64,000 nucleotides of DNA, from the NCBI GenBank assembly GCA_905178155.1, contig CAJINV010000017.1:124001-188000 (forward strand), read 5' to 3'. The stretch is from Amoebophrya sp. A120. Taxonomy: Eukaryota; Protista; Dinoflagellata. Positions within the stretch are counted from its first letter, which is position 1. Every line of letters begins with the position of its first letter. Positions 1 to 63,835 of this stretch are shown piece by piece. A model generated the notes under the pieces. The model was not told the DNA's origin, did no database searches, and worked only from the letters and a program-made list of their open reading frames with translations. The position numbers and the translations under genes were made by a program.

Positions 1-3000
1 ATGATGCAAAACGAACGCAGCACCGACGCCGACCGCTCTACCAACAGAAGCGAGTCCGCCGCGAGTAAGAAAAACACTGGGACAATCTGGGATGACGAAG
101 AAGACGAACACTCTGCTTCCTTGTCTTGCAGTAACGACCAAAGTAGTAGTAGCCACGAAGTTGACCAAGGACTGCATCAAGCTGCGGAAAACTACTCAAG
201 TCTGGGCTTTCGACCTGAAAATAATCGACAAGGAAGCGTTGTTTCGCTGGAAACACATCTGGCGCTATTCGTTGAGGCGTTCTGGGAAAGTTTGATGACA
301 TTCGCCTGTTCTAGTACTAGCAGTGGAGATGAAAATGCAGAAGTAGATCAGGCTACCGCGTTCGCCCGTTGCATGGAAGCTTGCGAGCTTTATTTCCAGC
401 ACATTCTAGAGCGAGAAGTGCTCGTGGTCCAGAAGGTGACTGGAAGTGGAACCGACAACATCAAGGACGGTGCATCCGCTGCTGACGCATGGACGGGTTT
501 TGTGAGTATAGTGATCATGACTTCGAGAGTTTTGGTAGGAAAGTTGCAACCTTTCGGAGCTGCAGTACCTGGCGAAACGGCAGGAGCTCCTTCATCCGGG
601 GCCGCTCAATTCCCAGCTGCAAAATCGAAGACGGTGAACTCTTCCTTCGCAAACATGGTAGCGAGTATACAATCGCAACTCTTTACCCGCACTCTAGTGG
701 TGCTGTCTCGCGTCGTGGATGCGAACCAAAGCGAAATATCCCAGGAGGGGAAGATGAAAGGCGGCACCAAAAGAACCGTAATTGGCCGGGCGGAGAAATG
801 TCTAGTTGTACCGACAGCAGTTGTATTATCCGCCCGTATAGCAGCAGGCCTGATGCGGTTCATGAGCGGCATCCTGCGGACCGGCGGCGCTTTCTCAACA
901 GGTGGAAGTTCGTCCTCTCCACAGCAGCCAGCTTTGCCCCTGACGGCGGTTTTGCGCGCCATTCACATCGAACAAACGGGAACAACAACTGGAGGCAACA
1001 CGTCCCTTCAGCCAGTGCGACCAGCTGTGACATCAGAGAGTGCACAGGAGCAAGCGCTGCCGGGGGTTGTGGCCGCCGAGGAGCAAGCGTCCACCTGCAC
1101 AAGAAGCATTTTCGCCGCCCCACCAGCGGTTATTTTCAGAAGCGGTCACATGATTTGTCTCCCCGCCTCTGCTGCCTCGCCAGCAGCATCAAGTGCAAGA
1201 CCATGCACGGCGCCAGCGCCAAATGGCATTTTGCTGAAGCAACAGTGGCAACTTTTATCCGCCATTGTCAGCTTCCTGTGGCACAGTAGCTCTTTTTTTT
1301 CCGAAGATCTTTCACGCGCAAAGGAGAGCGTCGCTCAGCATCGATCAGGAAGCAAGCAAAAGAACAATCGAGATGGACCAGTCCCCACTACAACCTTCCT
1401 GCACAGTCTTCTCAGCAGAGGGTTGCTTTGGGTGGAGCTGCTGCAAAGCCACAACTTTCTTCCCTTCTTGCTCAACTACAAGGACAGGAAAGGCTGGCTG
1501 CCGTTTTGCCGGCTGCTGGTGAAGTGGCTGCGGTTTCTGCACGCAGTTTCTGTTCAGTTGGAGAACTACGTGCACAATTCGAACAAGGGCAGCGGAAAGC
1601 GATTGAACCAAGCAGAAGTTCACACTAAGAGAAACGAAAAAGCCTCGAACTGTACGACCAAAACCGCCGAAGCTGCTGCTCTGGAGCCCAGCTTGAGGAA
1701 AACCACCGAGTTGCTTTTGCTCCTACTTCACGACTACCCGGACTTCCTGTCTGAGTACTACCAGCTGCTACTGAACGCCCTGCCATATGAAATCGACAAG
1801 CCGAAAAACTCCAGTACCCGTACCGCACAGGCACTGCAGCTAATGGTGCGTGGCGAGCAAAACCAAAACCTTCAACGTAGCACATACCGTCACGACTGTA
1901 CCACGAAAGGCCCTGCTACAGGCGATTGCTTCACGCAGATCAGAAACATCATCAGCTTTGCGCATCCAGCGAAGTTTTTCACAGAGCCGCCGAGTATCTG
2001 TTCTAGTCCCGGTCGCGCCAACACAACTTCTTTCCCCGATCCTAGTACGTCTAGTGCGGCTGAGATCGATCGCTTTCTGGGTGCCTGCATTAACTTGAAC
2101 ACGAACCGGGAGGACTGCAACAACGGTGGAAAAAGACCGCAGCAAGGATCTTCACCACTGCCAACTATTCGCGGACCCGCCGCGGTGGAGCAAGCTGTGC
2201 TTGCTAGCGAAGAGTTCGAGAAGTCTTTCATGTTTATCCAGGAAAAAACACCCATCCCCATCCATTTTGTGCATGGCAAATTGGATGGGGATGGGTGTTT
2301 TGTTCTCGATAATGTTGCTCAAGTCCACACAGAGTTTGAAGGGACAAAACCCATCTTCAAAGTCGTGCTCGTCCTATGTAGAGGCCTACGTCACCTGCGT
2401 AGATTGTCTGCAGCAGCGCGGCGGTGACAAATGGGATCTTGTGCTGCAACAGGAGGACTTAGAGGAGGGAGATGACAAGGATGATCTACAGAAACTTCCA
2501 GGTACCATTTCAGCTCCAGCATACTTGATTCGAATTCCTGTTCATCCTGGCATTTCAGAATTAGAAGGTCAAAGTAGTGCTATCGGGTGACATGAGGTAA
2601 CAGTATCTAGGAGCATTCTTCAGAAGCGTCGTGGTTGTTTTGCGAGCAGCAGGAGAAAGTCTCACTACATGTTCTTGGATGCAGTTGGTTTGCAATATCA
2701 TTTCCTACATCCATTTTCATCCGCTCGATAAGGTTCTAACTCAGGTATCCGCGTCCGGGCCGGCCCTTCTCTGAAAAGGGGATTTAAGCTCTCCGTATTT
2801 CGCGGATTAGATGAAGTTCCGACCGAGTTGCAAACCGCTGCGCGGGCGGAAATTAAGGCGAAAATCGGGAAAGACGCCAATCTTGGAAACGTGCACTCGT
2901 ATCTGTCAACCTTGGTTTTCTATTTGGGAAAAAACTTCGAGATGAGCCACAGCCATGTCACTGGAGGGCGAGCTGCTTCTCCTGATCTTGTCGAAACGGA

Positions 3001-11100: not shown

Positions 11101-11171
11101 GCTGTGGGACACGCAAACGGTGGCGCTCCTCCTGGGGTGGCCACGCCAGCTCCCGGAGGCGCCGTTACGAC

Positions 11172-11203
<32 letters not shown>

Positions 11204-11998: not shown

Positions 11999-14437
11999 CC
12001 ACATTTCAACCACGAGGACCTGAAGTAGCGACCGACAAACTTAACGACAACACACGCACATCGACATCATCTTCATTGCTGTGGTTCAAGTTCTTTCTTT
12101 CACACCGACCAAAAAAGCGCTTCGCTCTTCTTGATGTGCTTCGCTATAGGGCACTGCAGGCGGCTCTGACGCCGATTCGGCGGACGGTAAGGGTTCAAGT
12201 TGTAGTTTTTCAAAACAGAACAGCAGCGAGCGATTCTTTAGACGATCGACGCTAAAGACTACATGGCGACATCAAAGAAATACTTCTTACATTTGACTCG
12301 CAGGCTTTCACCGCTCTGGCGACCGACTGATAGTGCTTTTGATTGAAGAAACCTGGACGAGAAGGTAGTATATTGAAAGAAAAAACTGTGTTAGTGTAGG
12401 TATTTCAGAAAGTGCGACATTTTTTAATAGCGAAAGTTCAAGACTTTTTTAAAAGCAGGCAAGTCCGGTTTTCTTAATGCTGCCTGTGTTGTGGTGCTTG
12501 GAATACAAGTAGCTAGCGGCTGCTTCGGTAATAATTGTCTTTAGCTAGTTAAGGGGGCAGGGCTCATGTTTCTGCTTCGAAACCCGCTGGGCATCGTCGT
12601 AGTACTCCTCCATGTCGGTGCTTGTTGCGTTTTCATTTTGAGAAGAGAAAAGTCCGAAGAGCTGAAGGCGGAAAAGATAATTTTATGAGTGTAAGCGCAA
12701 AGCCAACTCTTCAGGTCGCGTTGAAATGGAGGCACTTTCTCGACCCCCCCCGACCACCCCCCCAGCGCGAGAATGAAAATGCTACACTCGCAATTTTCTC
12801 TTTCCTAATCCCCACCTATCAAAAGAAAAAAGAATCAGTGTAAATGGCCATCTTGGAAAAGAGATCCGAACGAGTGTAGTGCAATTTCTGGAGGTCCTTT
12901 TGACCCCCCCAAGGAGAAGAGTTTCTCTGCTACACTCGTCATTTTCCCTTTTCCGGGATGTTGCCTACACTTTCGCTTTTCTGTTTTCCCTGCCCGAATT
13001 GCAGTCAACGCCGTTCGCGCAAGAGTTCTGGAACTTTCGGCCTCCTTATACTTTCAGCGTTCGGACTTTTGGAGTCCTGCCTCCTTAACTATTCACATAT
13101 ACCGAAGCAGCCGTAGCTAGTTATGACTACATAAACTCACCTTGTAAACGTCAACACATACCAGGTCGCTAATTGCGCCGCAGCTCGAGAATTTTTTAGT
13201 TTTGCATATCAAAAAAAGTAGTGATTTTTCCAACACCTACACTAACACAGTTTTTTCTTTCAATATAAGTAGTCTACGAGAATACAATTCGCTCGTGTTG
13301 TTAACCAGTAAGTTGGTCAACAATGTGATGCGTGCAATATTGAAAAGTAGAAGTGTGAGTTCCAGTAAAAAGTGAATGAACCTCCCCGCCCAACCACGAC
13401 CAGGACAGACTGACATACGCAGACGACTACGACAAGAACAGTCTGCATTGGTAGAATTTCAATTTCTTATTTGTGCTTCCACTTGTACAAGGACGGATAA
13501 AGTCAATGCCAAGAAAAAGTCCAGACTTGCAAGAACACAGCCCGTCCTGCTGTCGTCTCTGGTTTATAAAGTCTGTATCTTGTTCTTGAGCAGAATGTGA
13601 GTGTTGACCTTTCTAATTTTAGTACGCGTTTTGCTTATTCTTTTCGTTTTCTTTGAAGATGATAAATACGGCGAGTTGTGTGGTTCATTTTCTTACAGCG
13701 CATGCTTCGTGCATGTCCATCGTGTATGGGGTGAACTCGACTCGTCGAAGATTGTTGAAAGGACGCTATCATAGAAATGGAGATAGTCCGGATGGATATT
13801 CTTTGATCTTTCAGCTACGAGGAAATATAAGCGCGCCGAAGTGCTCGTGCTGTAGCTCGTGAGGCATCGTGTCAGCGTCGTGCCTTGCACCTACTTCTTC
13901 GCTGGAGCAGGCATGTTGATGCCACTGCAGCTGAGCAGTCATATCAGAATTCCACTTCTTGTCAGCTACGTTTATAATTTGTTCAACAACAGCATCAACA
14001 CCCACCGGGCCTGTAGCAGCCAGCAGAAAGCAGGCAGTGTTTTAGACACTTGCAGGTCACAAGTTCACACATCATTAAGTTGCACCAGCACCCACTCGTC
14101 GAGTTGTGATTGATGTTGAATAAAGCACGCACGATAAAAATGGAGACGAGGCGGGACACGAGGAGTGACATCAGCAAGGTGCTGACGATTTTTCATTGTG
14201 TAGCGTATGTCGTATCTTCAGCGCAGCGCTGCCACCAGTAGAAATGTAAAAAGCTTCAGCTAGCCCTAGGACCCATAGCAACAATATTAAAGTCAACCTC
14301 AATTATCGCCATTGAAAGTCAGCTTCTTGACTTTTGAGGTTTTGTTTTCGTTTTCCAGGACCAGCACACACGACGACGACACCCATTCTTTCACCCGTTC
14401 AAGTACTGTAAATTTTTCCACCAGCAGCTCACCCAGA

Positions 14438-16482: not shown

Positions 16483-18224
16483 ATGCTCTCCTACATCTGC
16501 CGTTCCACCGCTGCCGTCGCGCTGATCGCCACGGCGACCCCGGGCGCAGTTCGCGGAGCTGACCCAGCGACGCGTCAGGAGCCGCCCGGCTTCCTGGCAA
16601 AACGTGTCCGTCAGGCGGAGCCGCTTTCTATCGAAATCGATGAGCAGGGCGGGAATGCGAATGCGAACGAACAACGCGACATGCCTTCTGCGCCGACAAC
16701 CGGTTTTCTCGCCGACGACGCGTCTTTTGCGGAACATCAAACCGTGATGGCCGGAAGCGAGCCGCCTTCGCCGGTGCCGGATTTGGTTGCCGAAGGGCAG
16801 GCTGTGATCGTGACCGACCGCGGCACCACTGCTGACGACGAGGAGCACTCTTTTGCTTATCTTCCGGAGCATCCGACTTCCGACGGCACGAGTGGCTCCG
16901 CAGTGTCCTCGTCGTACCTGTTTCTCGACCATCAGCAGGAGCAGGCGAAGCAGCACGCGATTCCCCCCTCCGCTCGCGAGGCTCGCAACTATCGTGGGTG
17001 GGCTTGGTGGGAGTACCTCCCGCAGATCGATGCTGGGCCAGATGGCCAGCCGCTGTACGGCCGCGAGGCGTTTTTCGATTACGATTCCTATCCCGAAGGC
17101 GTGTTTGTTCCGGCAATTGAGCAGTCTAAACCCGAATTCGGGTTCAAGTACGCGTACAAGTGCTACGGCGGAATTCCCGTGTTCGGTGGCAACGACGACG
17201 GTCGGTGGTTGGAAAACTGTGCAGTGTGTAACGCTGGTTACATTCTTGGGAATCGAGAACTCGAGCCCGCGAAGGGCTTTGATGCACAAGCCCGGTGCTT
17301 TCCTTTGCATCAGGAGCAGTGGGTTTCGTACTTTCCCAAGCCGGAACTTTTGCAAGGTCAGGGCTACACTCGGGGGAACAAAAAACTTCAGTGCCCGTTG
17401 GGGCTAACGCCCGGCAGGCTCGTTGGCGATCGTCCGACCGTCTACGAAAATGGTTTACGGGCGCAACCTCCTCAGAAGCAGGCGCCCGCCGCCCTGCTTA
17501 TTCCTATCCCGCCTCATGATGGGACCGTTCCGTCTATCCACGCTAAATTTATTCCCGTACACGAACACATGCAGTCTCTGCATGACAAAACTTGCCTCTC
17601 ATCCTGGTCAACATGAAAAGCGTTTAATTTGCCGAAATTGGTAATGCATTTCGTGTTACATGTACCTACGGGAAATTTCTAGTGCATAGCGTCGATCCTC
17701 AAGGATGTCGTTTGCTACGACAAAAACGTTCCGGAGTACAAGGAACTGTTCAAGCTTGCGGGGGAAGACCGGTCTCCGTCTCCGGGGAACGGGTATCCTG
17801 AGTAAAAACGTACCCACACCAGAGTCAGGATGGGGATTTTGCAACACAAACCTAGGAGTTTTGTGAGTCACGCATGACAAGTTGCACTCTGCAGCGTAGT
17901 GCAGGTTAGCAAGTGCAGCCGCATCACAGATTCATCGGCTCATCCTGTTCACAGCATCACAAATTCCAAAACACGACTGGAAATGGCTCTCATGGTGATG
18001 CGCATTACAAGTCTTCCTGTCTTTGCAAATCTGCGTTACAACTCTGGCGTGGGTACGTTTTTACTCAGGATAACGGGAACCAGATGAACATCCCTCCGGG
18101 GAACGGGAACCAGAACATCAACTTCGACACTCCTGCTCCGGCACAACACGCACCCAAAAAACAACCCCAAAAACAAGGCTCTGGCCCTGATGTGAAAGTC
18201 AAGGCCAAATCAGCGTGCTGCTAG
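16483..18224 (+). CDS. Hypothetical protein with a signal-peptide-like N-terminus and C-terminal KAKSACC; exons 16483-17534, 17694-17793, 18078-18224
   Basis: The frame is continuous after removing two TIR elements plus TSD (VPS|ILKDVVCYDK...PGNG|NQMNIPPGNGNQ). Confidence 0.75.
17535..17688. mobile_element. 154-nt TIR introner, imperfect TSD CCGTC/GCGTC
   Basis: TATCCACGCTAAATTTATTCCCGTA...TACGGGAAATTTCTAGTGCATA; contains GCATGACAAA; frame restored on removal. Confidence 0.8.
17794..18072. mobile_element. 279-nt TIR introner, family D, TSD ACGGG
   Basis: 32-nt TIR TATCCTGAGTAAAAACGTACCCACACCAGAGT with 1 mismatch; ACGGG at 17789-17793 and 18073-18077. Confidence 0.95.
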
Positions 18225-19634: not shown

Positions 19635-21353
19635 ATGGTCCGTGTCCTCCGTCTTTCCTCGCTCGAGGAGCAGCAAGAAGACGTGATCCTGTTTTCGACG
19701 CCTCAGCAACAGGTAGCCTCTGCCGCTTCGCGTCAGGCGGCAAAGGACAATGCACCGACCATACGGAATCTGGCGAGAAAGTTACTGCAGAAATGGAAGG
19801 AGGATAGCACGGGAGCCGCAGTGACCGCTTCAGCCGATGAACAGGTGCAACGCGATAAAAACAACATCAATATTATGGAAGCGTCAGGTTTGAAATCGTC
19901 AAAGTTGAAATAATTTGCAATGCATAAAATGCATGACCCGAGGCACGTGCGTTGCAGAGCAGGCAAGTGAGGCCGATTGTGAGCCTGTTTGGGGTTTTTA
20001 CAGCTCGAGCTTCTTAATTAGCATGAGAAAATCGCTCTTCTTTGCCTAAACAGCATGACAAAGTGGATTTAAGGACCGCCAAAATTTGTCTTGCGCCACT
20101 TGGAAACTGGGTCCCAACTGGCATCCATTTTATGCATGACAAATTATTTCAACTTTGTCGATTTCAACTCTGACACATCCATAAATATCAAATTCAACGG
20201 AAACATCGACCCGGAGCGATTGCTGTTTTGTGTCGACGGGAAGCAGTATGACGCTTTTTCGGAACACAACTTGGTGACCGACGGAAGTCATACCTTGAAA
20301 GAGTTGGACAGTGTGAACAGCAAAGTCGTCGTGGTAGTGTTGATCCGGTATAAGTTAGATTTGCAGGTCCTGCGGTTCGAAAAAACGAAGTTCCCCGTCT
20401 GGCTCACCACAGGAAAGACGATAACCGGGGAAGAGATTTTGCAGAAGCACTACCTACCCAGGCTGAAGGTGTTATCCAGGCTGTTGCACAGTATCACCTA
20501 CCCGCATTTAGTGGTCGGGACGAAAGATGTCTGGGCTGGGGTCTGTCGTGCGCCGGAAGCACTTGCGGGAGCAGGTCCGGAAGAGGTGGACGTCGACGGC
20601 GACGCATTAGAGGATAAGGATGAAGCTCACGGGCCAAGAGAAGGACCACAAGAAGAGAACCCAGACTTTCGAACAGATCAGCAGTTGCGTTATCGGGGCC
20701 GCACTACAAAAACGAGTGATCACCTTGATGTTGGGAAAACGACCGCCGGTATAGGCAGAAATGTGAAGAGCCCCACCTCCGTGGTGTCCACTGCTTCATC
20801 GCCTTTGCCACAAATGCAATCCTCGTCGTCATCTTCCAGAGGAGCTACGAGTTCTGGTTCGGGCACTGCTGCGGTTCTTCAAAACCAAGCGAGGACCGCC
20901 TCCACCCAGCAAAGGGCGCTCATTGGGAAGAAAGACTTTTACAGACCAATTCACCACGACGTGCTGACGATCATTCCGAGATACCAACTCCTCTGGCAAG
21001 CCTTCTACTACACGATTCACATCGTTTGGTTCTTCCACAACCTCGTCACCTCCGCCTGGATCACGACTTTCCGCACGAGCCGGGGGAGGGGAATCGGGTA
21101 CTACGAGGACCACTTGCTAGACGTGAATCCCGATGGAACAGTGTCCGCGCGAGGGTCGAATTCTTCTGCGGATCGTGATGCTGGTAGTGGTGGTGGGGGG
21201 TCTTCTACCCAGCAACAAAATGCCCGAAGGGCGAGAAATTACTACCACATTGACGTAGGTCAAGACTTTCAGCACCACAGACATGCCCCGGGACAAAACC
21301 CAAGAGGAGAGGATTTGACGCTCATAGTGAGACAAGCGCTCTTCGGCTTGTAG
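19635..21353 (+). CDS. Hypothetical protein; exons 19635-19873 and 20189-21353
   Basis: ORFs 19635 and 20091 join in frame (NINI|KFNGNID) after removing the element plus TSD. Confidence 0.75.
19874..20183. mobile_element. 310-nt TIR introner, family C, TSD AATAT
   Basis: Roughly 55-nt imperfect TIR TATGGAAGCGTCAGGTTTGAAATCGTCAAAGTTGAAA...; AATAT at 19869-19873 and 20184-20188. Reverse-complement homologue of 34216-34522. Confidence 0.95.
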
Positions 21354-21900: not shown

Positions 21901-24900
21901 ATGAACGACTCCCGCAAGGAATATGTTATCCAGTGCGTGATTTCGGTGCTGAACATCCCCCGGAGCGAATTCCGCTCCAACTCCGCCTCCAACACGGCAC
22001 TGGAGGCGTTCCTGGATGACAGCAGTCAGCGCGTCCTGCAGGCGTTGGAGCTCGCGCCGGGTGGCGCGGGCGAGCAAGACCAAAAAGCGTCGTCCAAGCG
22101 CACGGTCACGCTGTCCTTGGGGTTCAACCCGGCTTACTACACGACGAAACAGCCGAACGGGGAGGCGCTCAACGAGATGCACTTCGTTAAAATCGCGGCG
22201 CAGGAGGAGCTCACGGCGAGCAACATCCAGGCAAAAGTCATGATCTCGACGCTGCGGAACGGCCTGCTCCGGAGCCTGTCCGGTTTGCTGAAAGAGGTCT
22301 ACGTGCCGTGTTTGAACAACTTGAACGCGGGAAGCGCCGCGGGGGAAGGAGGGGGAGCGAATGCAAACGTGGAGTCTCTAGACGGAAAATTATCCGACTA
22401 CCTGTTAGAGCTGGACGCCGGCCTGAAGACGCAACTCCGCCGGGGCCTGGGGAACATGAACAAGCAAGCGGGTGGTCAGCAACAGGCGGCTTCGGAAACG
22501 GATTTCTCGGGGATCTTGGCGCCCATCGACGAGCTGCGCTATTGGCAGGACCTCTCGTTCGACAACACCCTGACGGAAAAGCACAAGCAACGCGCAAAAC
22601 AGTTCGCGGAAATCTTGCAACCGTTGGCCTCGGATTTCGAGGACTTGAGCAAGAAAACTTTTCCGCAGCTGCTGGACTTGCAAGATTCTTTTCTTACGTG
22701 CTGCGACGAGCTTTGGAAGTCCATGGAGGAGAAATCAACCGTGTACAGACAGGACCGGATGCAACATTTGTTGCAGACTTTCGGAAAGGCAATGGGGCAG
22801 GTGGTGCAGAAAAAGTTGACCTCGCTGCAAGTGTGGCAAAGCGAGAAGCAGTTCAACCTGATCAGCAAGTACATTCGCGAGGGGCATAAGGTGTGCGAAA
22901 AATGGAACGAAAATCTACTAGATTGGACCGGCACGGACTGGAAAGCGCCGGGGTTGCTGCATCAGTGGAACGGGGAGCCGATGAGAGACACGTAGAGATG
23001 TTGGCAGTTGTCGAGGTTTTCACTGCAAGTGCAAGCTCATTACTAGTACCTTTTTTCGCACGACCAGCAGAGAAGATAGAAGCCTACTTTCGCGTCAGTG
23101 TGTACGGAGCTTCATTTGTTCATCAACCAATCTACCAGGTTTATGCAGAATCTCGCCGCCCGCGTGCACCAAGTCGCGGAGATTCGCACCCAGCACGATC
23201 AGATTTTGAAGCTCTGTCCCCCGGACCAGCAGGGCGGCCAGGTTTTTAGCGGAAACAACGTTTTCGACTCGTTTCAGAAGGTCTCCACGTTCATGTGCAA
23301 CGACTACACGCTCCCGCTTTGGAACGCGGCGGTGGAAGATTACGAGAAGAAAATGGCACCGCTGGAAGGAATCGTGGCGGAGAGGTTACGGAAAGAACTC
23401 TTCCCGGCGACAGGCTCCAGCTCTTTATCGTCCGGTTCAGCCGGTGGACAACTAAACTCGATGGACATAGAAGGAGCAGACAGCAATGCGCTGCACAACA
23501 CGACGAAGCAGTCGACCAACACCAACCCAACCCAGTCTGTCCGCGTGTTTCAGCGCTACGGGTCGATTCTGGAGCGGACCAACGTGCGGAACGCGCTGAC
23601 GAACGAGAGGGAGAAGGTTTTGGCGGAAATTTCAGATTTTTTGGAACGAATAAAGTCCGAATTCGACCTGGAGGACATGGCGCAGGACGTTCCCCTCGGC
23701 CGCAACTTTTCGCTGTACTTGCGGAAGGTGCTTTGGCTGGAGCAACTGCGGACGAAATCGGAGACCGTGTTGCGCCCGATGCTCTCCGGGTTCCTGAAGG
23801 ACTTGCCGCAAACAAGCCGCGTCGCCCAGAACTGCAAGAAATTACGGCAGGAATTGAAGGACGCGAAGCAGCGTTGTTTCAAGGACTGGGAGGAGGAAAT
23901 GGACCACGCTTTGAGCCAGCAGAACAACTATTCCCTTCAGCTCCAGGGCAAAGTGATGGAATTTGACACGAGTAAGCAAGGTGCCTTGAAGATCACCTAC
24001 CCGGAGCAGCTGGTGCATTTGATCAAGGAAGTGCGGTTGTTCGAGCAGATGGGCTTCAACGTGTCGAAGTCGGTGAAGAAGCAGGTCGATTTAGGGCTGA
24101 AATTCTACCGGTTCGCGGTGCAACTGAAACAAATCTGCAACTTCCACAACCACCTGGGCGCGGAGATTCTTGCCTGTCAAAAACTACTCGTGCTAAACGC
24201 GGCGGTGCGATTTGAAAAGCTGTTCTCCGACTCCTCCACTTCCTCCTCGGGGATTTCGAAGATGCAGTGGGACAGCGTGGACAAGCTCGAGGACTTCACG
24301 ATCCGCGTGAAGGACGGTGCCGGGAAATTGAGGTCGTTGAACCGGAAGCTGCGGCTTGCGCACAACAGCATCTGCGAACTGGTTTTGTCCCTGGCGAATG
24401 TGTCTTTATTGAAGCAACGGGAGCAGTGGAAGTTGAAGTTGCAGGAAATCTCGAAAGTGATCACCAACACGTCCGCGATTTGCGACATTTCCGACCCGAA
24501 CGAACTCGAACTGGCGACGAAGCCGTGGTATCAAATGTAAAAATGTCTGGGTCTGGAAGAATGCAACTTGTCATGCTGTTTTTGGACTCTAAAAAACTTT
24601 TGTATTGCATGACCAGCAAGAGCAGGGGTGCAATTTGTGCTACACGGACAGGGCATTTCTCATGCGGAAGGTGCATCAGGAAGCCCTCTAAAAGTCTGCG
24701 ATGCTAGGTCATGCATTACAGTCATCATGGGTCATGACAAATATGCATGACAAATCTTCATTCTCCCAGACCCAGACACTTTTGCACTTGATACGTGGCG
24801 GGCGTTCTGGGACTACCAGCTGTTCAAGATTCTCGAGTGCCAGTACCGACTCGGGTTGGAGTCCTTGAACGAATCGCTGCCCGAAATGAAGGCGGACTTG

Positions 24901-39510: not shown

Positions 39511-40698
39511 ATGAGACCGGCGCTGGGTGCTGCACGGATGAGAGAGAATCATCCCACATGCACGATGCCTGGCACTACAGCGAAATCATGCTTTCCTCTT
39601 CCAAAGATTGAAGATCTCCCGTACCTCCGCGCCTCGTCCCGCGAATGGACAGTCACTCCGTTGCGGAAGATGGGTGGTATCGAAAATGGGGTCATGACAG
39701 CGATGAATATCCTGGAGATCAGCAGACGGGCCGCTCTGATCAAGTCGACTACTACAACAACTCGATGTCTTCAAGATCGTCCACAATACAGCAGCGAGCC
39801 CGTTTCCTTTTCCTTCTTCGTTGTGGAACTTTTTAACCCGCTAAATGGGGAGCGCGAGCTGCGGTTAGTGGCTTCGCATTCGGCGCACCAGAGCGAACGC
39901 GCACAAGCTCTGAAAAAAGCAGAGTGCCTGGTCGCCGATATGAGGCGGGACATGGTAGAAAACGAGGGTAGGAGGTTTGCGATTCCAACAGGAGCGGAGG
40001 GCGGCTGGATGGTCGACAATCAGAAGAAATGCAAGTCCCAGGCGGCCTTGAACCTCATGCAGGAGTATTTTGCGGAAGCTTTAGCCAATGCGCGTGGCGT
40101 AGAACAAGATGGGAGAAGCGCAGTTGTGCCGATCCGAGAACAGACGAACGTAGAGCAGGAGGGGACGACAGCAAAAAACGACATGCCGCAGGGTTGTTAT
40201 GGGCACTACGTGCTCGAGGACTTAAGGGGTTTGTGTGTATGGTAGCAAAATCCTGGGTGGTGTGGGTTTCACGCTCGCGTCTAATCCGAAAAACTGCCCA
40301 AGAATTCTTGTCAGAGGGCGGGGAGAAGTAGCAGGAAGGAAGGGGCTTGCAAGTTTTGCATGGGTCGGTCCCCATTGGCATTCCAAGTCACTTTACATGA
40401 GATGTGATTGATGTGATTCTTTTCATTACATGTCGAGTATTGTTACAGTACTGCAACTACGCTTTTTATTGTTTACCTTGACGGTTCTTTGTCTTTCCCG
40501 AATTGATGCATGCCGTGACTCCAACCGGCCAGGCTTTTGCTACCATAGTGAAAGAAAAAAGACGTAGATTCTCGGGCGCAAACATATGATGCCGAAGAAG
40601 CGACGCTGTTGATCTACTGCCGGCGGGAGTGGGTGTTCGAGCTTTATTTGCGATCCATAGGCAAAGCGCACAGACTGCGAATTCATGCACGACTTTGA
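39511..40698 (+). CDS. Hypothetical protein; exons about 39511-40237 and 40553-40698 (3' end uncertain)
   Basis: 244-aa ORF that continues as KKDVDSRAQTYDAEEATLLIYCRREWVFELYL after the TIR element is removed. Confidence 0.55.
40238..40547. mobile_element. 310-nt TIR introner (distinct family), degenerate TSD GTGTG/GTGAA
   Basis: TATGGTAGCAAAATCCTGG...CCAGGCTTTTGCTACCATA, 18/19 complementary. Confidence 0.82.
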
Positions 40699-53319: not shown

Positions 53320-55405
53320 ATGTTCTTTGAAATGAATTCCCGACACAGAAACAGAATGGCCTTTCTTCATAAGGTTTTGGTTTTCGCTCTGACTTCTGGT
53401 CTGAGTGATTTCCTCACCTTTGATGGAACGCAGGATCATGCACCGGCGCAGTTCTCCCGACATGCAGGTGGAACAAGGCAGCCTTACAGAAGCCCGGCAC
53501 CAGGTGGTACTCTCTATGTTGCAGCAATGAGTCCCCTTCAAGTCCCGGGTTGTAGTCTGCGCCCTCGCGGCGCCGGCACGAGCGCGTGTCTGCGCCGACG
53601 CGCGGGCAGCGTCGGGCCCGCGCCGAGACAGACCGTCGTGCAAAATATGAACGGGGAAGCTGCTGGTGCGCCAGCAGCGTCTGCGTCGTCATCCCCCAGC
53701 ACGACGGGACGAGTTGCTGAAGGTTCAGTAGACCGTCCGCCCGGTAGCAGTAACACTTCTTCGTCGAGTATCGAAGAAAAAAACACCATCACAATCACAT
53801 TTAGGAGGTTTTGCATCAGAAATTTCTCTCGCATGACAAATTTTTCTTGTATTGCAAAAACCCAAAGGGAAATCGCCAATAGCTCGTGACTGTCATGCAT
53901 TTTTGCGCATGACAAAAATTTTTGTATTGCAAAAATATGCAAATGTGATTGTGATGGTGTTTTTTTCTTGAATATCGAGGACGTCCTCGTCGTGGTTCGG
54001 ATTACTACTTGGGACGACTGCGACGACCGAAGAAGATGATGCAGACCATAGACATAGTCATCGTCATACAGTTAATACAGATCCTGCAGCTCATAACATA
54101 GAAGGTGTTGAAGACTTGAGTACCCCTGCAGCAGCGGGTCCGAGTGCTGTTGACTCGTCCTCAGCAGGTTTTCTTTCATCTGCTTCCGGCGCATCTACCG
54201 CTTCTCACCGTTCCTGCAGCCCGTCTTTACTGGAACACGGACGAGAACAAACAGGCAGTTTTTCCCATCATGCGGGTGATGAACAACGCGAACAAACTCC
54301 AATCGCCCGCAATCCGCTCGATGTATTCGGCGCTCGACAGGACCTTTGTTGCTTCTGCATGTACCCACTGATAAGTAGCGCAGCTGCTCCTCCGGACGAG
54401 GAGCAAGCGGGACAAGGCGGAGGACGAAGACCTTGTTCGCCGGCAAGAACGCAAGGGACCGCGGCAAACGAATCTCAGCAGGAGGAGGTGGTAAGTGGAA
54501 CACAATCTTCATGTGGTACTACAAGTTGTCCTTCTACTTGTTCGAGGACGACAGAGGAGCCCCAGCTGCAGGAGCCGGCAGATAAAGTGGTCCAGAACAG
54601 CGTTTGTGGGCACTTTTTTCACAAAGCTTGCGTCGATGTTTACCTGCAGAAGCAAACGAAACACTACCGCGTGCGGTACGCTACCTGCCCACACTGCCGC
54701 GAACCCTGGATCAAAAAAGAAAAAGTGAAGTGGATAGAGACTTTCAAAGACCGAGCCGAGTCCGTCTGCCTCCATCTCGCGGACCAGTTCGGCCATTGTT
54801 GCTCCGCTTGGAAACAACTGCTGAGACTGCAACCGCTTTCGGATTGGCTCCCGGAGGAACGGCGCTACTTTCCAACGCGTAATGAGTTTATCGGCCTTAC
54901 CAGCGGAAACTGCATTTGCATACACGCAATTTTGCAAGCAGTGAACTTCCAGCCGGAGAAGGCATGCTTTAATTTCCTCACCACCCCGGGCTTACCGAGT
55001 GTGGAGGAACTTGTGGCGCAGGCAACTGGTGTGCTCTCCAGTCTTACGGAATTACCGACACACCAGATCCAAGCGTTAAAACACGCTGTGGTGATGTGTT
55101 GCATTTGCAACGGCTGCTTTGTTCTCCGCAGACCGCTGGTGGAAGGGGTGCGGAGAGGCTTCCACTGGCCCTGTCTGCCACCGAAACGCGCGGAACAGGA
55201 GCAGATGTGGGAGGTATGTTACGATCCTGCAGATGACCAGGAAAGAGAGAAGTTTAAAAATAGCGGCCCTTGTATTCACGACGACCTTAGGCGCCCGAAT
55301 GATGTGAACCGTCATCACGGACATGGAGTCGCAGTGCGCCAGTCAGGAGCCGCAGGAGCATGTTCACAGGCAGCAGTGCCAAGCCAGCTGAGGATGTGCG
55401 AGTAA
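53320..55405 (+). CDS. RING-H2 finger protein (putative E3 ligase); exons 53320-53768 and 53980-55405
   Basis: CCFC ... CGHFFHKAC ... CPHC. Removing the element plus TSD links ORF 53320 to ORF 54116 with no stop. Confidence 0.7.
53769..53974. mobile_element. 206-nt TIR introner, family E-like, TSD TCGAG
   Basis: 34-nt TIR TATCGAAGAAAAAAACACCATCACAATCACATTT with 2 mismatches; TCGAG at 53764-53768 and 53975-53979. Confidence 0.95.
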
Positions 55406-56834: not shown

Positions 56835-59430
56835 ATGGTGTCGCATGATCGTACAACAAGTTCTGCAGCGCCTGCCGCAGCAGGAGCAGGCGTCAAAAGA
56901 GCCTCCACGGATTCCCGAGTATACGACACTAGTGCCGGCACAAGAACTCGTTTGGTCTACTACCAGACCGGGGACGGGCAGTGGGTGACGATGGCCGAAC
57001 CGGAAGATGACACCTTTGAGGAGGACCGTTCCTCGAACACCAGCAGCATTTGCGGTTGCGCCGTGTGGGTGTTTGTCTTGATCATCGTGCTGATTTCCGT
57101 CCTCGTGTTGGGGGGTATCATCGTCGCGATTGTCCTCTTAGCGGCGAACAACGCCTCGGACACCGGAAACAACCATACTCCGGCGCAGCCCCGCCCGCCC
57201 CCGACCGGCGACGACATTTTGGATTCTCTGGTGAACATGAACAAGGACGTGCCGGAGGAAAACCTCCCGGGTTATCACCAACGCCACGTGTCCGCCTATA
57301 CCCGGCTGGCGAGCCCGAGCGGGAATCTGCTCGCGGAGATCACGAACAACGTGATCACGGGGGAGGACCGCTATTCGTACACGGCTACCGACCGCCTGTT
57401 CGACGACGGGCAAACGATTGTCGCGTTTCTGAGCCGGATCGGAGTGCGCAGTCGCTCGACGCAGACGGTGCTGCCCCAGAACTTCACCCAGCTGGCGCAA
57501 CGGGACGTCGAGTACCGCACGTCCTTCGGACTGCGCGTGGACATTGGGGACAGCCCGGACTGGCAGAACCATTTGGTCCTCCTGGATACGGGCGGCGGCG
57601 CCATGAGCTACTTCCTGGCGACGCAAAAGCAGCTGCAAGATTCTGGGTTCCGGAACCGCAACACGGGCCGCGGCCGGACGCACAACAGCACGACGAAGAA
57701 GGACATTCACATTGTATGACAATGCACAACCCCCCCTCGTCCCCCTCATTTGTATTTCTATTTTTGCATGAGCAGCATAAATACAGACACCCTCACGACC
57801 TGTGGAGCCAATGCTTGCATGATAAATTTTTGTTGTTAGTAGTGTAGTACTCTTTAGGCCGCTTCCGGAGTTTGTCCTGCGAACAGTGCCGAAGGGAAGC
57901 ACTTTGACTTTGGTTTGGGGTTTTGCATGACAAATGAGGTCGTGGTGGAGGGGGAGTTGTGGACTTTCATACATTGTGACCAAGTTTCAGAAGGACCGGG
58001 ACTACGTCGAGTGCCGCTACGTCGGGGGCTGCCACAAGGGGCGATTGGTGGGGGACCGTTGGAAGATTGCCGGAAGCAACGCGCAATTGCAGTTGAAAGA
58101 CAACAATTTCGTCCCATCGGACCAAAAAACCCTGCCGCTCGTCTACGTGCAGGAGCCCGGCAGGCGGGACAATCCGGACGGCGGCAACTTTGGGCTCGGT
58201 TTCCGCACGGAAACGTGGAAAAGCAACATGTTCACGAGCGAGATCAGCACCATTCTGGACCAGTTTCGCCTCCACAGCGTCTACAGAGGGGCAGCTGCGG
58301 GTCTTGCAAACGACCCCTTTCGCCCGATGGTGTACAGCTTCCAGCTGGCCCGGCCGACGGGGGAGAAGACCACCGAGTGGCATGTGTACCCGCAGCTGGT
58401 TATCAACAGCCTGCCTCCGGACAGCGGCGACCGGCTCCGCGCGTTCGACCTGGCTCAGCAAAATTTCGCCGTCCGGGCGGGCGACGTGCTACTGCAAAAG
58501 CTGGAGTCCGAGTGGGGCCAGGAGGGTGCGTATCCGAGGGAGATCTTCAATAAGATCAAATCCGCACGTATTGACAAGGATGAGCACACCTTGAATTACC
58601 TGCGGTCGAAGGTGCTGCGGAAAATCTACAACGGCGACTTTGGAACGCCGCAAAAACGGGAGCAGACCACCACCAGCCCGTTCTACAAACAGATTGTCAA
58701 GCCAGCGACGGATTTTCGCCCGACCTTCTGGCAGCTCCACATCACGCGGGTGCGGATCGGAAAGACAGTCGTGGAGGCGGAAAAGGACATGTTCAAGTAC
58801 AAGTTCAACGACGCGCGGGCCCGCATGCCCGAGCCGGACCCGAACAAACGGCTCGACGCAACCTTCAAGCCGACCACCGACTGGGAGTACGGGTGGGACG
58901 CGTTCGACCAAAATTTGGCCGACCGGAGCGCGAGCGTGTTTGACCAGACCGATTTGAAGCGGAAAGTCCACCCCATCAACGGCCCGCTGCACACCACGAA
59001 GATACGCATGGTAGCGGTGGATGGGACGTTGGCGGACAACTTTGACAAGGACCAAGACGAACATGTCCACCCGGACAAGCGGTACCTCGCCGTGGTGGAC
59101 TCCGGGTGGTCCATGCTGTCCCTCGCGAAGCCGCTGTACCGGATCTTTCACCGGAAGCTGGAGCTGGTCAACTTTGTGTGCGAAGACGGGCCGGAGCTGG
59201 GCTTCGAGTTCGAGACCGGCACGGAGCGGCACTGGTACTTTTTGACGCCGAAGGACTACTGCTTCTGCCAAGGGGTGTATCTCGGCAACAAAAAAGTGAA
59301 CAGTTGCGTGGACGACGGCGGCATGGATGGCCGCGACGGCACGGCGGTGATGCTGGGCATGCCCTTCCACCGGGCTTTCTACGTAGGCTACGACTACAAC
59401 AACCGCAAGCTCTGGCTGCCGAAAATGTAA
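56835..59430 (+). CDS. Membrane-anchored pepsin-family (A1) aspartic protease; exons 56835-57714 and 57977-59430
   Basis: N-terminal transmembrane helix, LLDTG (D at 57585), VVDSG (D at 59098) and C-terminal LGMPFHRAFYVGYD. Confidence 0.85.
57715..57971. mobile_element. 257-nt TIR introner, TSD CATTG
   Basis: TATGACAATGCACAACCCCCCCTC...GAGGGGGAGTTGTGGACTTTCATA; removal gives DIHI|VTKFQK. Confidence 0.9.
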
Positions 59431-61372
59431 ACAAATGTGTCTAAGTTGTAATACTACGTAGAAGATGAACAACAACTTGCTTTTCTGCGTCTACTGCCAC
59501 GATTTTTTTGTGCTGTGGTACCGCAAGAACATAGATTGTGTTACCATGTAGGATTATTTCAAATTTTGAAGAAGCGCATCACCTTGTCGTGGCCTTGCTA
59601 TCAGCACATGCGCGACACTGCAGTTGAGCAAGCTATCAACAGAAATCCTTACGCTAAAACGGAAACGAAAAGTGATCGGCCAGTGCTGGTCAAGCAAGAA
59701 ACAAAAAAGTACTTATCACTAGGCCAAGCACACTTTTACGACAAAAATCATGACTATGACCACCGACGCTGCTGCTTTCTTTCAATTTGGCCACTTTTTT
59801 CGCTTTTGATTGGTCCAAAAACTTTGCTTTACGTGTATGATGTAAGTACTATGAGTTGAAACAAACTACGCACGCACGCGTGCTGTCGCTACACACAATT
59901 ATCCTTTTTCTGTACAAACAGTGAGAAAACTGTTTATCTCTCACTTTGAATATCGTCACTCTCAGAAAAACGCAGCAAAGCAAAAGCTTGTTAAGTAGCA
60001 AGCTAAGTTGTACGTATGCTTCCCAAATCTGTTTGACAGCGACACTGTGAATTGAACGAACTCAGAGCATTTTGAAAGAGGAGTAGACCGAACACTTTGA
60101 AAATTAACTGGAAGTCCTATATGTATTCTTTGGGCCTTCGCCTTTGGCTGCACAGAAGTACTAGATGTTGTGGACAATAGTCATTATATACAGAATTGGT
60201 CATAGCGCAAATAATTCCAGTCGGCACAAGGACGCTATACCATAGGATAGCGCCGTCCTATGTATAGGTATTTCGCATCTGCACAGGCCAGCTCTAAGTA
60301 ATCGGATCCGATACAATCAGCATCGCATGATGGCACCACTGGCGGCACGTGCAGCCTTGATGCTAAACATAGGGGACGCAGGAGCAAAGCACTCTCCTGC
60401 TATATTTTGGTTGGAACAGTTGAAGCTACAAATAGTCAACTTTTTTTATTCTCGCACGTATACTACAGAAGAAAGGTAAAGGATAAGGAAGGACCACAGG
60501 TGTCGAGTGATGCTCGAGCCACAGTGGAGCTAGTCCTTACGCATTTCATTTTGCATAGCGATAGTTTACCACGAGAAAAAAAAATAAAGGAAGACGAAGT
60601 CGAAGTTGTCTCTACTCATAGTTATAGATTTATCATATGTGATCATGGTCCTGTTTTGTTTTCTTAAAAGTGCTTTTGAGTTAGTTCATGTAGCTAGTTA
60701 CGTTTTCGCGTTCGCCTTTATTTGATGTGTATGACTGCTTGAGCGATCGAAGAGTACTAGTCCCTCCCTCGTAGTTCCTCTTTTACAATTGTTCCGTTTC
60801 CGAGAACATACGTCTCTTTCCCCTCTACAACACCAGCTGCGTCATGGTAGTGCTCTCATCAAATGCCTTTATTTTTCCGTCAGGCTTTATTCCTGAGGTC
60901 AATTGCTACAAGGAAATAAAGGAGTCAACAACATAGAACGCTACACGACGAAGAAGTAATAGATACTGTGGCACATCACCCAGTATTTTTCGTAGGGGAT
61001 CAACACACCAAAGGAACCCATCATGTCGTGGTCGTCGAGTTATTTACAGACTTAACACACATGAATTTCGCCCCCTTCTGGAGCTGGACGTCGGAAAGCA
61101 AAACCTCATTTAGAAACTTGTGTGCCCACAGCTTCGGGTCGAAGGTTGCGGAGGTTGCGGCGCTGCACTGAGAGGCGCTGTCCAACCGATTTGATCGCAG
61201 CGTACGTTGTTTGTTCTCCCATAAAAATCCGGCGAAAAACAGTCAGACCGAATGGCGCACGCGAACTATGCAGACTGCGAAGGCAGCCTCCGAGCTGCAG
61301 CATTCTCTTGTTCTAATCTAAGTGTGTCAATTATGTAATCTCCGCAAGCAGGTGTAGGGGCACGACCACCCC

Positions 61373-63835
61373 ATGATGATAATGTCGCCTCTAGTACAAA
61401 AATCGTCCTTCGACATGTGTTTCTTCTTTGTTGCGATCCCGCTAGCCATGGTTTGTCCGCCCGTTCCTGTTGCGATCGTACCTGTCTGGTCCCCTCTCGA
61501 TGTCTTTGTCGGAGTGGTTGCTGAGGAACAGGCAGCCCACCGGAACACTGTTGAAAATGATTCTACATCTACTACAGATTTTGTCAACATAACACAGACG
61601 CATTCCGATTCCGAGGATCGTCTTGAACAAGTGCCTGCTTCTGCTGCACTGGAAACAAGTCGTGAAGCTGCTACTGACACTGCAAGTAATCGTCCTGTTG
61701 CTTCTCATACAAGAAATGTGGAGGCACGAAGAGACAGAGACTTACAGCACGACAAGATCCTCGTGAAAATGGATGACATACACATAGATGAAAAACCACC
61801 AGAACAACACATCAAACAGGACAACGCCACACACAACAAACCCGGTGGAAGTTCTGCAGCTTCTGGTGCGCCGCATGGAGATCTTTCCACCACCTCCAAC
61901 ATCCATGCTCAACCCAAAGAGGAAAATAAGCAACGGAAATCATCAGACGATTTGCAACATCCCCTGCTGCTAAACTTTTTTCGGCGTAGCAGCCGTTTTA
62001 GTTACACGGTTGGCGCAGCGGTGTTTTTTCTGGATTTTCTGTTCGATAGCTACGAGTTTTTTGCGTCGTCCTTGCGGTGGATTTGGATAAACTGGCTGAT
62101 GCCAGGTAAGGACCAGCGTCCAAAGTCAAACACAACTTTCAAGGATGCAAGTAGTACGGCGACGAGCTCCTCAACGGCCCGAACGAAGCTTTTCACCCAA
62201 TACACGCAACAGCATTCGCTCTACTCAAGGCGCAGACTGCCGAGCGGTGGGACGCTAGAGGAAAATGGAAAAGATGAGAAGAAGAAGCACCAAAACGAAC
62301 GAAAGGATCTGGATCAGGAGCAACAGCAGGAACCCGCAAGAGGAAGAGGAAGAGCTGCGAAGCATCTTCTCACGGAAAGCGATCAACAGCTGGAAGCGGC
62401 TCATCGAGATCAAGTCCGAGAGAACGAAACAGCTAAAATGGCTAGCGGTAGCGCCACCAGCTCCAGCAACGACACCGAGCGTGACTTGAACAGTACGGTG
62501 GCTACGGCCGAGGTAGAAGATGAAAAAACGCCGGAAGAAGGACAAACTCAGCCGACGCCTGCAGCCAAGGAAGCGGATGTTGACCAACAAGCGCTGCAAG
62601 AAGAAGAACACTCTCCCACCGCTACGCACGAAAAAATTGATACCAAGTCCTCCGCCGCGGCAAACAGGAGCCCCAGCAAGGTTTCTTCCTCCGAGATGAA
62701 TTTGAATGATCCCCACGAACAAGAACAGCTGAAGAAAAGAAACAAATCTTCCTCGCACAATCTGAACCACTCTCTTCTGCACTGGATCCTGCGCATCATG
62801 GAGCTCTGTTTTTTCACCGCGCCAAATTTTGGTCTGTACGGACTGGGGGCAAAGGTGTTCTATGAACTGAAAATATGTTGTCTGGGTGCAGGAAAGACGC
62901 CACGAATTTGTGTTATTGAGTGATGCATGATGACACAACGATCTTTTGTATGGCATCCACGAGTCACAAGCTTTTCCTGTGGTATTGCGAGACCCATCGT
63001 GATCATTTGCATGACAAACTGAGTTTCACAGCATGACAAAAAAACTGCCCAATTGTATTCATTTTTATGCATCACAAAGAAATCATCGCTGTCCTTGAAG
63101 TTTCGCATCACAAATCCAGACCCAGACATATTTGCAATGCATATGCTCGAACTGTTGACCATTTCCGCGGAGGAGTTTGACCGGTTGGGCGAGAGCATTG
63201 ACATCGACCCGGACCAAGAGCCGCTTTTCCTGGTGGACAAGGTGATGCGCGGGGTCAGTGACTCGGGGGAACTGGAAATCGTGCAGCAACTGCGCGAGGT
63301 GGCTGAGGATTTAGAGAAGATGAAAAACTTCTTCCAGTACCACCTTGGTTATTCTACCGACCCGGACCACGCCCATTGGCCAACCGCGAGCTCAAACCAG
63401 GCGAGGAAAAGAGCAAAGGATCTTAAAGACCGGCGCAGTACTCTATCTTCACGGACCGCGACTGCAAATCAGACTGATGGTGCAGACGGTGTAATACTTT
63501 CGTCCGATGAGAACAGCTTCGGCGGGGGCACATCAAGTAGCAGTCACAACTTCAAAAATCCGCCGGTATTTACTCTCGAGGACCTGGTCCACCACACACA
63601 GAAGGGGGTCGAGAAAGTCTTTTCCTGGCTGCTTTTCTTCGCACACTACCTTTTCGTTTCTTTCGGGCTTTTGGTCTTTTTCAACGTGTTTTTCGTGTGG
63701 CTGGTGATGTGGCTTATCGTGTGGGGAAACGTGCGACTTACCGTGGACGGGCAGTCAGTGCTGGGCGAGCGGTGGATGGAGAGACGCCAGAACGACTTGA
63801 AATTTTTCCAAGGCTTTTTCCAACTGGCAATGTGA
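61373..63835 (+). CDS. Hypothetical membrane protein; exons 61373-62860 and 63149-63835 (may splice onward at the GTGAGT overlapping the stop)
   Basis: ORFs 61373 and 63053 join in frame (AKVF|ELLTIS); several hydrophobic segments. Confidence 0.7.
62861..63143. mobile_element. 283-nt TIR introner with family A-like ends, TSD TGTTC/TGCTC
   Basis: TATGAACTGAAAATATGTTGTCTGGGT...CCAGACCCAGACATATTTGCAATGCATA; four GCAT(G/C)ACAAA motifs. Confidence 0.88.

What the first reader, a model, noticed from the sequence alone, without database searches (positions are those of the whole stretch)
2235..63143. A transposon-intron system: 18 TAT...ATA hairpin elements with 5-nt TSDs that must be removed without GT-AG
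Seen in sequence: 18 insertions in 9 genes, all starting TAT and ending ATA, with TIRs of roughly 15-55 nt. Fourteen have a perfect 5-nt TSD. Removing element plus 5 nt restores the frame every time, and nine of them sit in dynein-2, where conserved motifs reappear. No register within the TSD gives GT-AG. Established knowledge: non-canonical introns with inverted and direct repeats are reported from Amoebophrya, so the class is not new. Inference: these are non-autonomous DNA transposons excised from pre-mRNA by a structure-guided mechanism. I cannot assign TAT ends with a 5-nt TSD to a transposon superfamily, and no transposase is present in the window.
Basis: partly seen in the sequence, partly recalled or inferred. 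Interest (0 to 1): 0.92.

Follow-up and report, generated by a model that had tools for sequence, protein, structure and literature searches.

The report
Hairpin transposons acting as non-canonical introns
Eighteen short hairpin-shaped inserts, 17 of them breaking genes, match a class of transposon-derived introns already described in the marine parasite Amoebophrya; they are likely cut out of the RNA without the usual splice signals, by an enzyme that is still unidentified.

Summary
The window holds 18 TAT...ATA inverted-repeat elements; 14 have perfect 5-nt direct repeats and none offers GT-AG within the repeat. Seventeen break 8 genes; one is intergenic. Removing nine elements+5 nt and two GT-AG introns gives a stop-free 4,738-aa dynein-2, gapless against 113 of 113 homologs at the best site.

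The class is in print. Farhat 2021 describes Amoebophrya A120 introners (TAT start, A-run, 3-5-nt repeats, RNA-seq support). Gozashti 2025 lists one family as '5-bp TSD, TA/TA termini', Ginger-like.

About 500 copies from one metagenome assembly add detail:
- The repeat is 5 nt (332 of 431 exact; none 6 nt).
- 144 of 146 coding sites need element+5 removed.
- Both orientations occur (48:40).
- Target sites show almost no base bias.
- A motif GCAT[G/C/T]ACA[A/G] is shared across families.
- G·U versus A·C pairs (222:219) show no selection on the sense-strand hairpin, so 'structure-guided' is not shown.

No transposase was found and no RNA reads were examined. Best reading: non-autonomous integrase-type transposons, likely removed from RNA by a factor measuring from the paired ends. 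A relaxed spliceosome is the close rival.

The parts
2235..2311 (.). E1, 77 nt, exact 5-nt repeat, in a Not1-domain gene; related to E10
12369..13267 (.). E2, 899 nt, intergenic, repeat with 1 mismatch; carries a nested element; no exact internal motif
12518..13112 (.). different element nested in E2: GG...CC ends, 13-nt inverted repeat, 9-nt flanking repeat with 1 mismatch (Mutator-like by ends only)
17535..17688 (.). E3, 154 nt, repeat with 1 mismatch, in an unnamed + strand gene
17794..18072 (.). E4, 279 nt, exact repeat; same family as E7 in the opposite orientation (77%)
19874..20183 (.). E5, 310 nt, exact repeat; same family as E13 in the opposite orientation (78%)
21901..38458 (+). cytoplasmic dynein-2 heavy chain gene, 4,738 aa after removing E6-E14 (+5 nt each) and two GT-AG introns; start codon assumed
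22992..23138 (+). canonical GT-AG intron in dynein-2
24529..24793 (.). E6, 265 nt; family with E9 (78%) and E11 (93%), same orientation; homologs gapless 7 of 33 (variable region)
25957..26242 (.). E7, 286 nt; homologs gapless 37 of 59
26361..26516 (.). E8, 156 nt; opposite orientation to E12 and E14 (about 70%); gapless 65 of 65
26574..26834 (.). E9, 261 nt; gapless 63 of 66
28545..28653 (.). E10, 109 nt, inside the conserved HTPLTDKCY stretch; gapless 113 of 113; no frame-keeping GT-AG or GC-AG within 36 nt
30251..30515 (.). E11, 265 nt; gapless 91 of 108; no frame-keeping GT-AG or GC-AG within 36 nt
33457..33635 (+). canonical GT-AG intron in dynein-2 (begins GTATCA)
33976..34139 (.). E12, 164 nt; gapless 32 of 33
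34216..34522 (.). E13, 307 nt; gapless 33 of 33
37649..37805 (.). E14, 157 nt; only 2 homologs span it, both gapless
40238..40547 (.). E15, 310 nt, repeat with 2 mismatches, no exact motif; a GT-AG pair lies at -1/+2
53769..53974 (.). E16, 206 nt, exact repeat, in a gene with a weak RING-finger hit (below Pfam cut-off)
57715..57971 (.). E17, 257 nt, exact repeat
62861..63143 (.). E18, 283 nt, repeat with 1 mismatch; an 84%-identical ortholog (P0121) reads into a like element at the same site

Best explanation
These TAT...ATA inverted-repeat inserts with 5-nt duplications break coding frames; they are likely non-autonomous DNA transposons that are likely removed from pre-mRNA by a non-spliceosomal cut-and-join activity predicted to measure from the paired ends.

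Shown: anatomy; strict 5-nt duplication; near-random targets; both orientations; element+5 restores conserved proteins exactly; no GT-AG register at about 91% of sites.

Inferred: an integrase-type (DDE) transposase encoded elsewhere made the 5-bp staggered cut, using the ends and probably the internal GCAT[G/C/T]ACA[A/G] repeats.

Inferred, with published RNA-seq support for the class: removal happens in RNA.

Inferred, weakest step: the long stem brings the two ends together, and a factor reads UAU...AUA plus the A/U-run at positions 11-15. It cuts both strands at fixed distances that sum to 5 nt, whatever the bases there, and ligates the exons, so one copy's worth of the duplication remains.

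Odds: about 0.9 for everything except the enzyme; about 0.55 for the whole.
For: Duplication: exact 5 nt in 332 of 431 elements with strong inverted repeats, 4 nt in 1, 6 nt in 0 (one search agrees without asking for a repeat).

Frame: 144 of 146 sites with both flanks confidently coding (of 440 testable) need element+5 mod 3. An element in RNA polymerase II RPB1 (L027:8978-9239) splits codon 831 of the yeast numbering with no gain or loss.

No sequence rule at the cut sites: 153 sense-oriented perfect repeats show background base composition, and 176 of 193 sites have no GT-AG register.

The repeat need not match: 40 of 193 carry 1-2 mismatches, spread over all five positions. Mismatches are twice as common at third codon positions (26 of 331 vs 24 of 634, p=0.009), as expected if one copy stays coding and the other is free.

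Orientation is free: 48 vs 40 among the 88 of 193 that could be assigned to a family. No k-mer of 5-6 nt is strand-biased after correction; one 4-mer (CTTC) just passes. The internal motif is not a sense-strand branch site (sense better 41, antisense better 67, tie 82).

Print: strain A25 uses other ends (TTA) for the same kind of intron. Euglena nonconventional introns use a paired motif at fixed spacers from free cut sites (abstract) and leave as circles (review passage).
Against: No RNA reads were examined, so splicing, register and excised product are untested here.

No sign of selection on the sense-strand hairpin (G·U 222 vs A·C 219; family E6 arm changes 16 vs 18), and positions 4-8 pair in only 102-152 of 193 elements. 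This fits a ruler on a rigid stem poorly.

GT-AG-capable sites are enriched on the sense strand: 17 of 193, against 3.6% by chance and 4 of 193 antisense (p=0.0007 and 0.006). Eight of the 17 are AG|GTAT, a hint of spliceosome use.

Signals inside the inverted repeat are symmetric by construction, so free orientation does not exclude a spliceosome.

No transposase or integrase family in 106 of 150 long ORFs of the loci or in 39 window and long-element ORFs. Farhat 2021 found no transposase in A120 and argued against general transposase mobilisation.
Confidence: 0.55

Rival explanations
1. Same transposon origin, but a relaxed U2-type spliceosome removes them. The stem replaces U1-based definition; the intron would start one base before TAT (N-UAU[C/G], like GUAU[C/G]) and end four bases into the right repeat.
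For: U2, U4, U5, U6 and nearly all spliceosomal proteins are present in A120, and U1 snRNA was not detected. The commonest annotated A120 donors are N-T (GT, CT, AT, TT; Table S4). GT-AG-capable sites are enriched about 2.4-fold, mostly in that register. In that register the phase split in the loci, 95:55:43, equals the usual 5:3:2 of spliceosomal introns (ratio recalled). At E15 any cut two or more bases before TAT makes a stop (read from the sequence). A canonical intron in the same gene begins GTATCA.
Against: Both terminal dinucleotides would be arbitrary at about 91% of sites. No sense-biased branch or pyrimidine signal was found. The annotated N-T donors may reflect aligner preference inside a direct repeat (inference). 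The window's own phases (6:8:3) disagree with the loci (p=0.023). A25 introns start TT.
Confidence: 0.35
2. The elements are excised from DNA in expressing nuclei, like the TA-bounded internal eliminated sequences of ciliates.
For: Every signal found is strand-symmetric, as expected for recognition on double-stranded DNA.
Against: The elements stand in the DNA of the window, of the metagenome assembly and apparently of a genome behind P0121. Amoebophrya has no known germline/soma split (own knowledge). Symmetry is already explained by transposon origin.
Confidence: 0.04
3. The mRNA keeps the elements and ribosomes hop between the two repeat copies (each 5-nt repeat holds one whole in-frame codon); cDNA junctions would be reverse-transcriptase jumps over the hairpin.
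For: Hairpin plus direct repeat is the known recipe for template-switch artefacts and for translational bypassing (own knowledge).
Against: In 15 of 40 elements with mismatched repeats the whole codon encodes different residues in the two copies. Nine hops of 114-312 nt would be needed in dynein, and one element is 2,940 nt long.
Confidence: 0.02
4. The genes are dead and the elements are ordinary disabling insertions.
For: None beyond the lack of expression data here.
Against: Dynein-2 has 0 other stops or frameshifts in 14,217 nt. RPB1 carries several elements yet is collinear at the tested site. 144 of 146 frames restore.
Confidence: 0.01

Closest known systems
Amoebophrya A120 introner elements (Farhat et al. 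2021, PMC7789003)
   Same: TAT start, about seven variable bases, then an A-run; inverted and direct repeats; non-GT-AG ends; mean length near 240 nt; coexistence with canonical introns; repeated families.
   Different: Published as 3-5-nt repeats overlapping variable boundaries. Here, with ends fixed at TAT/ATA, the repeat is a strict 5-nt duplication outside the element. Free orientation, the lack of strand asymmetry and the internal motif were not in the text I read; its figures S19-S25 were not visible to me.
Amoebophrya A120 TIR introners, family 38 (Gozashti et al. 2025, PMC12130899)
   Same: [quoted passage not shown]
   Different: Family 38 is about 808 nt with ORFs resembling Copia/Gypsy elements, and the main text says it lacks true Ginger ends. 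No such ORF was found here, and I could not compare sequences.
IS3EU/GingerRoot DNA transposons (Kojima and Bao 2023, PMC10045372)
   Same: TA..TA termini; DDD/E transposase related to IS3 and integrases.
   Different: Duplication usually 6 bp, against 5 here (0 of 431 with 6 nt); no transposase in hand; not reported as introns in the passages seen.
Euglenid nonconventional introns (PMC12501133; review PMC11282704)
   Same: Non-GT-AG ends, paired motif near both ends, repeats at junctions, presumed MITE origin, unknown machinery, coexistence with spliceosomal introns.
   Different: Motif CAG/CTG at spacers N3 and N5-6 with a purine starting the next exon; here TAT/ATA with no detectable exon-side bias. 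Unrelated lineage.

Membership tests
Amoebophrya A120-type introner elements | Inverted repeat starts with TAT, then about 7 variable bases and at least 3 A | tested here: met
   18 of 18 start TAT; in 193 locus elements A is 85, 89 and 94% at positions 11-13. TAT was required by the detector; one search shows other starts lack the 5-nt repeat.
Amoebophrya A120-type introner elements | Direct repeat of 3-5 nt at the exon/intron boundary | tested here: met
   5 nt exact in 14 of 18 and 332 of 431
Amoebophrya A120-type introner elements | Repeated families dispersed through genes | tested here: met
   families within the window; 457 locus elements have a full-length relative
Amoebophrya A120-type introner elements | Non-canonical boundaries | tested here: met
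   0 of 18 and 17 of 193 have a GT-AG register
Amoebophrya A120-type introner elements | Junctions supported by RNA-seq | not testable with these tools
Amoebophrya A120-type introner elements | Host is Amoebophrya | tested here: inconclusive
   the named dynein-2 hit with high identity is a dinoflagellate (Effrenium, 65%) and the end motif matches the published A120 one; the window's source was not established
IS3EU/GingerRoot transposons | TA..TA termini | tested here: met
   definition
IS3EU/GingerRoot transposons | 6-bp target duplication | tested here: not met
   0 of 431 with an exact 6-nt repeat
IS3EU/GingerRoot transposons | Cognate DDD/E transposase | tested here: inconclusive
   none in the ORFs scanned; no whole genome held
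Ginger1/Ginger2 transposons | TGT...ACA-type termini (recalled) | tested here: not met
   ends are TAT...ATA; Gozashti 2025 also says family 38 lacks Ginger termini and TSDs
MITEs (non-autonomous TIR transposons) | Short, non-coding, inverted ends, fixed-length duplication, many copies, either orientation | tested here: met
MITEs (non-autonomous TIR transposons) | Autonomous partner sharing the ends | tested here: inconclusive
   longest copy with a perfect repeat, L063:11262-14201 (2,940 nt), has no Pfam hit in its five longest ORFs
U2 spliceosomal introns | GT/GC...AG ends | tested here: not met
U2 spliceosomal introns | Lariat intermediate | not testable with these tools
   needs RNA

The most novel reading that the evidence does not exclude
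The lineage has a dedicated, spliceosome-independent RNA excision system that undoes one kind of transposition. A single factor, perhaps a domesticated partner of the integrase-type transposase, recognises the TAT...ATA ends and the GCAT[G/C/T]ACA[A/G] motif shared by otherwise unrelated families, on double-stranded RNA and in either orientation. It restores the pre-insertion sequence exactly. The transposon then inserts almost freely into essential genes, and one motif is the key to both its spread and its removal.
Probability: 0.2. Interest if true: 0.85.

Novelty: already known. Interest (0 to 1): 0.4.

Why it matters
The class is published, but how these introns are removed and what moves them are open questions. 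The counts here narrow both. The mover leaves a strict 5-bp duplication between TA..TA ends, which points to an integrase-type transposase. The remover ignores the bases at both cut sites, does not need the repeats to match, and works on either strand of the element. Elements with mismatched repeats (E3, E15, E18 and 40 in the loci) give a ready way to read the true splice register from existing RNA-seq. If the remover is not the spliceosome, it would be a second nuclear pre-mRNA splicing route, paralleling the unsolved euglenid case.

Tried and rejected
- No whole genome was held and the loci's records could not be searched further, so there was no genome-wide transposase search.
- No RNA or DNA reads were examined.
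- The window's excess of G before TAT (11 of 18) looked like selection for a GT donor. It was not repeated in the loci (47 of 153; the two differ at p=0.016), so I treat it as a fluctuation.
- Extra pairing of the flanking repeats onto the stem: no clear bias in 114 sites.
- Internal motif as a branch site: rejected, no sense preference.
- Selection on the sense RNA hairpin: null result.
- Register from coding likelihood of mismatched repeats: 30 single-mismatch sites, no power, none stop-informative.
- First frame test was underpowered (6 of 216) and was redone. First catalogue mis-picked inner TATs and was redone.
- Protein searches for a transcript-derived junction: one read-through ortholog for the E18 gene, nothing for the E15 gene. 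The dynein search covered only 929-2,650-residue records, so a full-length protein of this organism could not appear.
- Viral contigs: 0 matches to an element end.
- Earlier scan notes: nothing in three look-ups.
- Literature: searches returned no paper whose listing points to the motif, the orientation result or an identified Amoebophrya splicing enzyme. Roy et al. 2023 (Curr Biol), all figures and bioRxiv supplements were not seen and may hold such results.
Full report
OBSERVATION. Scans for inverted ends with flanking repeats recover 18 TAT...ATA elements of 77-899 nt. Fourteen have an exact 5-nt repeat and none has a GT-AG register. A detector that finds 16 of them finds none in three shuffles of the window. 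Seventeen break + strand frames of eight genes; E2 is intergenic. For all 17 the retained element brings an in-frame stop or a frameshift.

DYNEIN TEST. The host of nine elements is cytoplasmic dynein-2 heavy chain. With E6-E14 (+5 nt each) and two GT-AG introns removed, 14,217 nt translate to 4,738 aa without an internal stop. Among 120 homologs, those spanning each junction align without a gap within 8 residues in: E10 113 of 113, E8 65 of 65, E13 33 of 33, E12 32 of 33, E9 63 of 66, E11 91 of 108, E7 37 of 59, E6 7 of 33, E14 2 of 2. Frame-keeping GT-AG pairs within 36 nt are absent for E4, E6, E10 and E11. They lie close for E7, E12, E13, E15 and E16, where they would add or drop 1-2 codons; the gapless homolog counts argue against them at E12 and E13.

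MORE COPIES. The 130 loci (about 630 kb unique) hold the window's families at up to 95% identity but no matching gene region, so they are a close relative or the same species, chosen through one family. They yield 498 elements, against 1 hit in 160 kb of shuffled sequence where the real loci gave 112. Of 431 with strong inverted repeats, 332 have an exact 5-nt repeat, 1 a 4-nt and 0 a 6-nt repeat. Of 440 testable sites, 146 had both flanks confidently coding on one strand, and 144 of these need element+5 mod 3. One element splits codon 831 (yeast numbering) of RPB1: the upstream exon ends at 830 and the downstream one resumes at 832.

WHAT THE STATISTICS SAY. For 193 elements with an assigned sense strand (assignment assumed the 5-nt link):
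- Target bases look like background.
- 17 offer a GT-AG register, against 3.6% by chance and 4 on the antisense strand: a modest sense-strand enrichment, with 176 offering none.
- 40 have mismatched repeats, spread over all positions and twice as often at third codon positions.
- Orientation is 48:40 in the 88 assigned to families; E4/E7, E5/E13 and E8/E12 show the same in the window.
- Arm mismatches are G·U 222 and A·C 219, and positions 4-8 are the least paired near the ends while TAT and the A-run are kept.
- The motif GCAT[G/C/T]ACA[A/G] occurs 41 times inside the window's elements and once outside, and in 359 of 371 perfect-repeat locus elements. It has no sense preference; if anything the antisense copy is the better match (67 vs 41). 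E1, E2, E15 and the 2,940-nt copy lack an exact match.
- Insertion phase is uneven in the loci (55:43:95, p=1e-5). A target-site profile predicts 41% against 48% seen in the top class, and the window does not follow the pattern. This is unexplained.

MECHANISM. Insertion: fixed 5-nt duplication, inverted ends and free orientation are the marks of a TIR DNA transposon (established knowledge). No transposase family was found in 106 of 150 ORFs of 250 aa or more in the loci or in 39 window and long-element ORFs. Removal: it must return exactly one copy's worth of the duplication, and it cannot depend on the bases at the cut sites, on identity of the repeats or on directional signals in the element body. 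What remains is the symmetric ends. I favour a non-spliceosomal cut-and-join activity measuring from the paired ends (0.55). A relaxed spliceosome is close (0.35): the GT-AG enrichment, the annotated N-T donors and the phase split all point to a cut one base before TAT. DNA excision (0.04), ribosome bypass (0.02; 15 of 40 codon pairs disagree) and dead genes (0.01) are unlikely. No reads were examined, so RNA removal rests on frames and on the published RNA-seq.

COMPARISON WITH PRINT. Farhat 2021 (PMC7789003; abstract, passages, sections 10-12, 16 and 32, supplement part 3 and legends; no figures) reports RNA-seq-supported non-canonical introns in Amoebophrya A120. Their inverted repeats start TAT, then seven variable bases and three or more A, with 3-5-nt direct repeats, a hairpin model, a MITE comparison, no A120 transposase and no U1 snRNA. 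Gozashti 2025 (PMC12130899; passages and 56 of 58 A120 rows of supplement file 8) classes most A120 families as TIR DNA and notes family 38 as 'Ginger; 5-bp TSD, TA/TA Termini' with Copia/Gypsy-like ORFs. Kojima and Bao 2023 (PMC10045372; passages) give TA..TA ends and 6-bp duplications for IS3EU/GingerRoot. Euglena parallels come from PMC12501133 (abstract and introduction) and PMC11282704 (passages). PMC9860276 and PMC11453091 (passages) added nothing on orientation or motif. Roy et al. 2023 was seen only as a reference.

VERDICT. A real and striking system, already described. It works like the A120 introners and meets every feature of them that could be tested here; it is not an IS3EU or Ginger member on duplication length and ends. 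Interest 0.4: the class is known, and the added regularities make the open question of the enzyme easier to test.

Noticed in passing
window 12518-13112: A second kind of element nested in E2, with GG...CC ends and a 9-nt flanking repeat (1 mismatch). A120 family 65 is tabulated as Mutator with GG/CC ends and 8-9-bp duplication; no sequence comparison was possible, and it has no match in the loci.
   Followed up: partly
window 40238-40547: E15 has a decayed repeat, no exact motif and a GT-AG pair at -1/+2 that costs one codon; it may have become a canonical intron.
   Followed up: partly
L063:11262-14201: A 2,940-nt element with E1/E10-type ends and a perfect 5-nt repeat inside a minus-strand ORF. 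Its interior is non-coding, with internal copies of the end motif, a nested inverted repeat and short tandem repeats.
   Followed up: partly
L027:7256-15867: RNA polymerase II RPB1 region carries several elements, one at codon 831 (bridge helix, recalled); the topoisomerase II region of L062 also carries several.
   Followed up: partly
193 sense-assigned elements in L001-L130: Insertion phase 55:43:95 (p=1e-5), only partly explained by target bases and not seen in the window.
   Followed up: partly
window 62861-63143 and P0121: An 84%-identical ortholog from another genome reads into a like element at the same site, so E18 predates the split of the two.
   Followed up: partly
window 1-64000: The long coding frames all lie on the + strand, in line with the unidirectional gene clusters reported for Amoebophrya (abstract). 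Most of the 21 window ORFs scanned have no Pfam match.
   Followed up: no
window 18079-18113: The exon after E4 repeats the sequence around the insertion site (NGNQMNIPPGNGNQNINF), a short tandem duplication in the protein.
   Followed up: no
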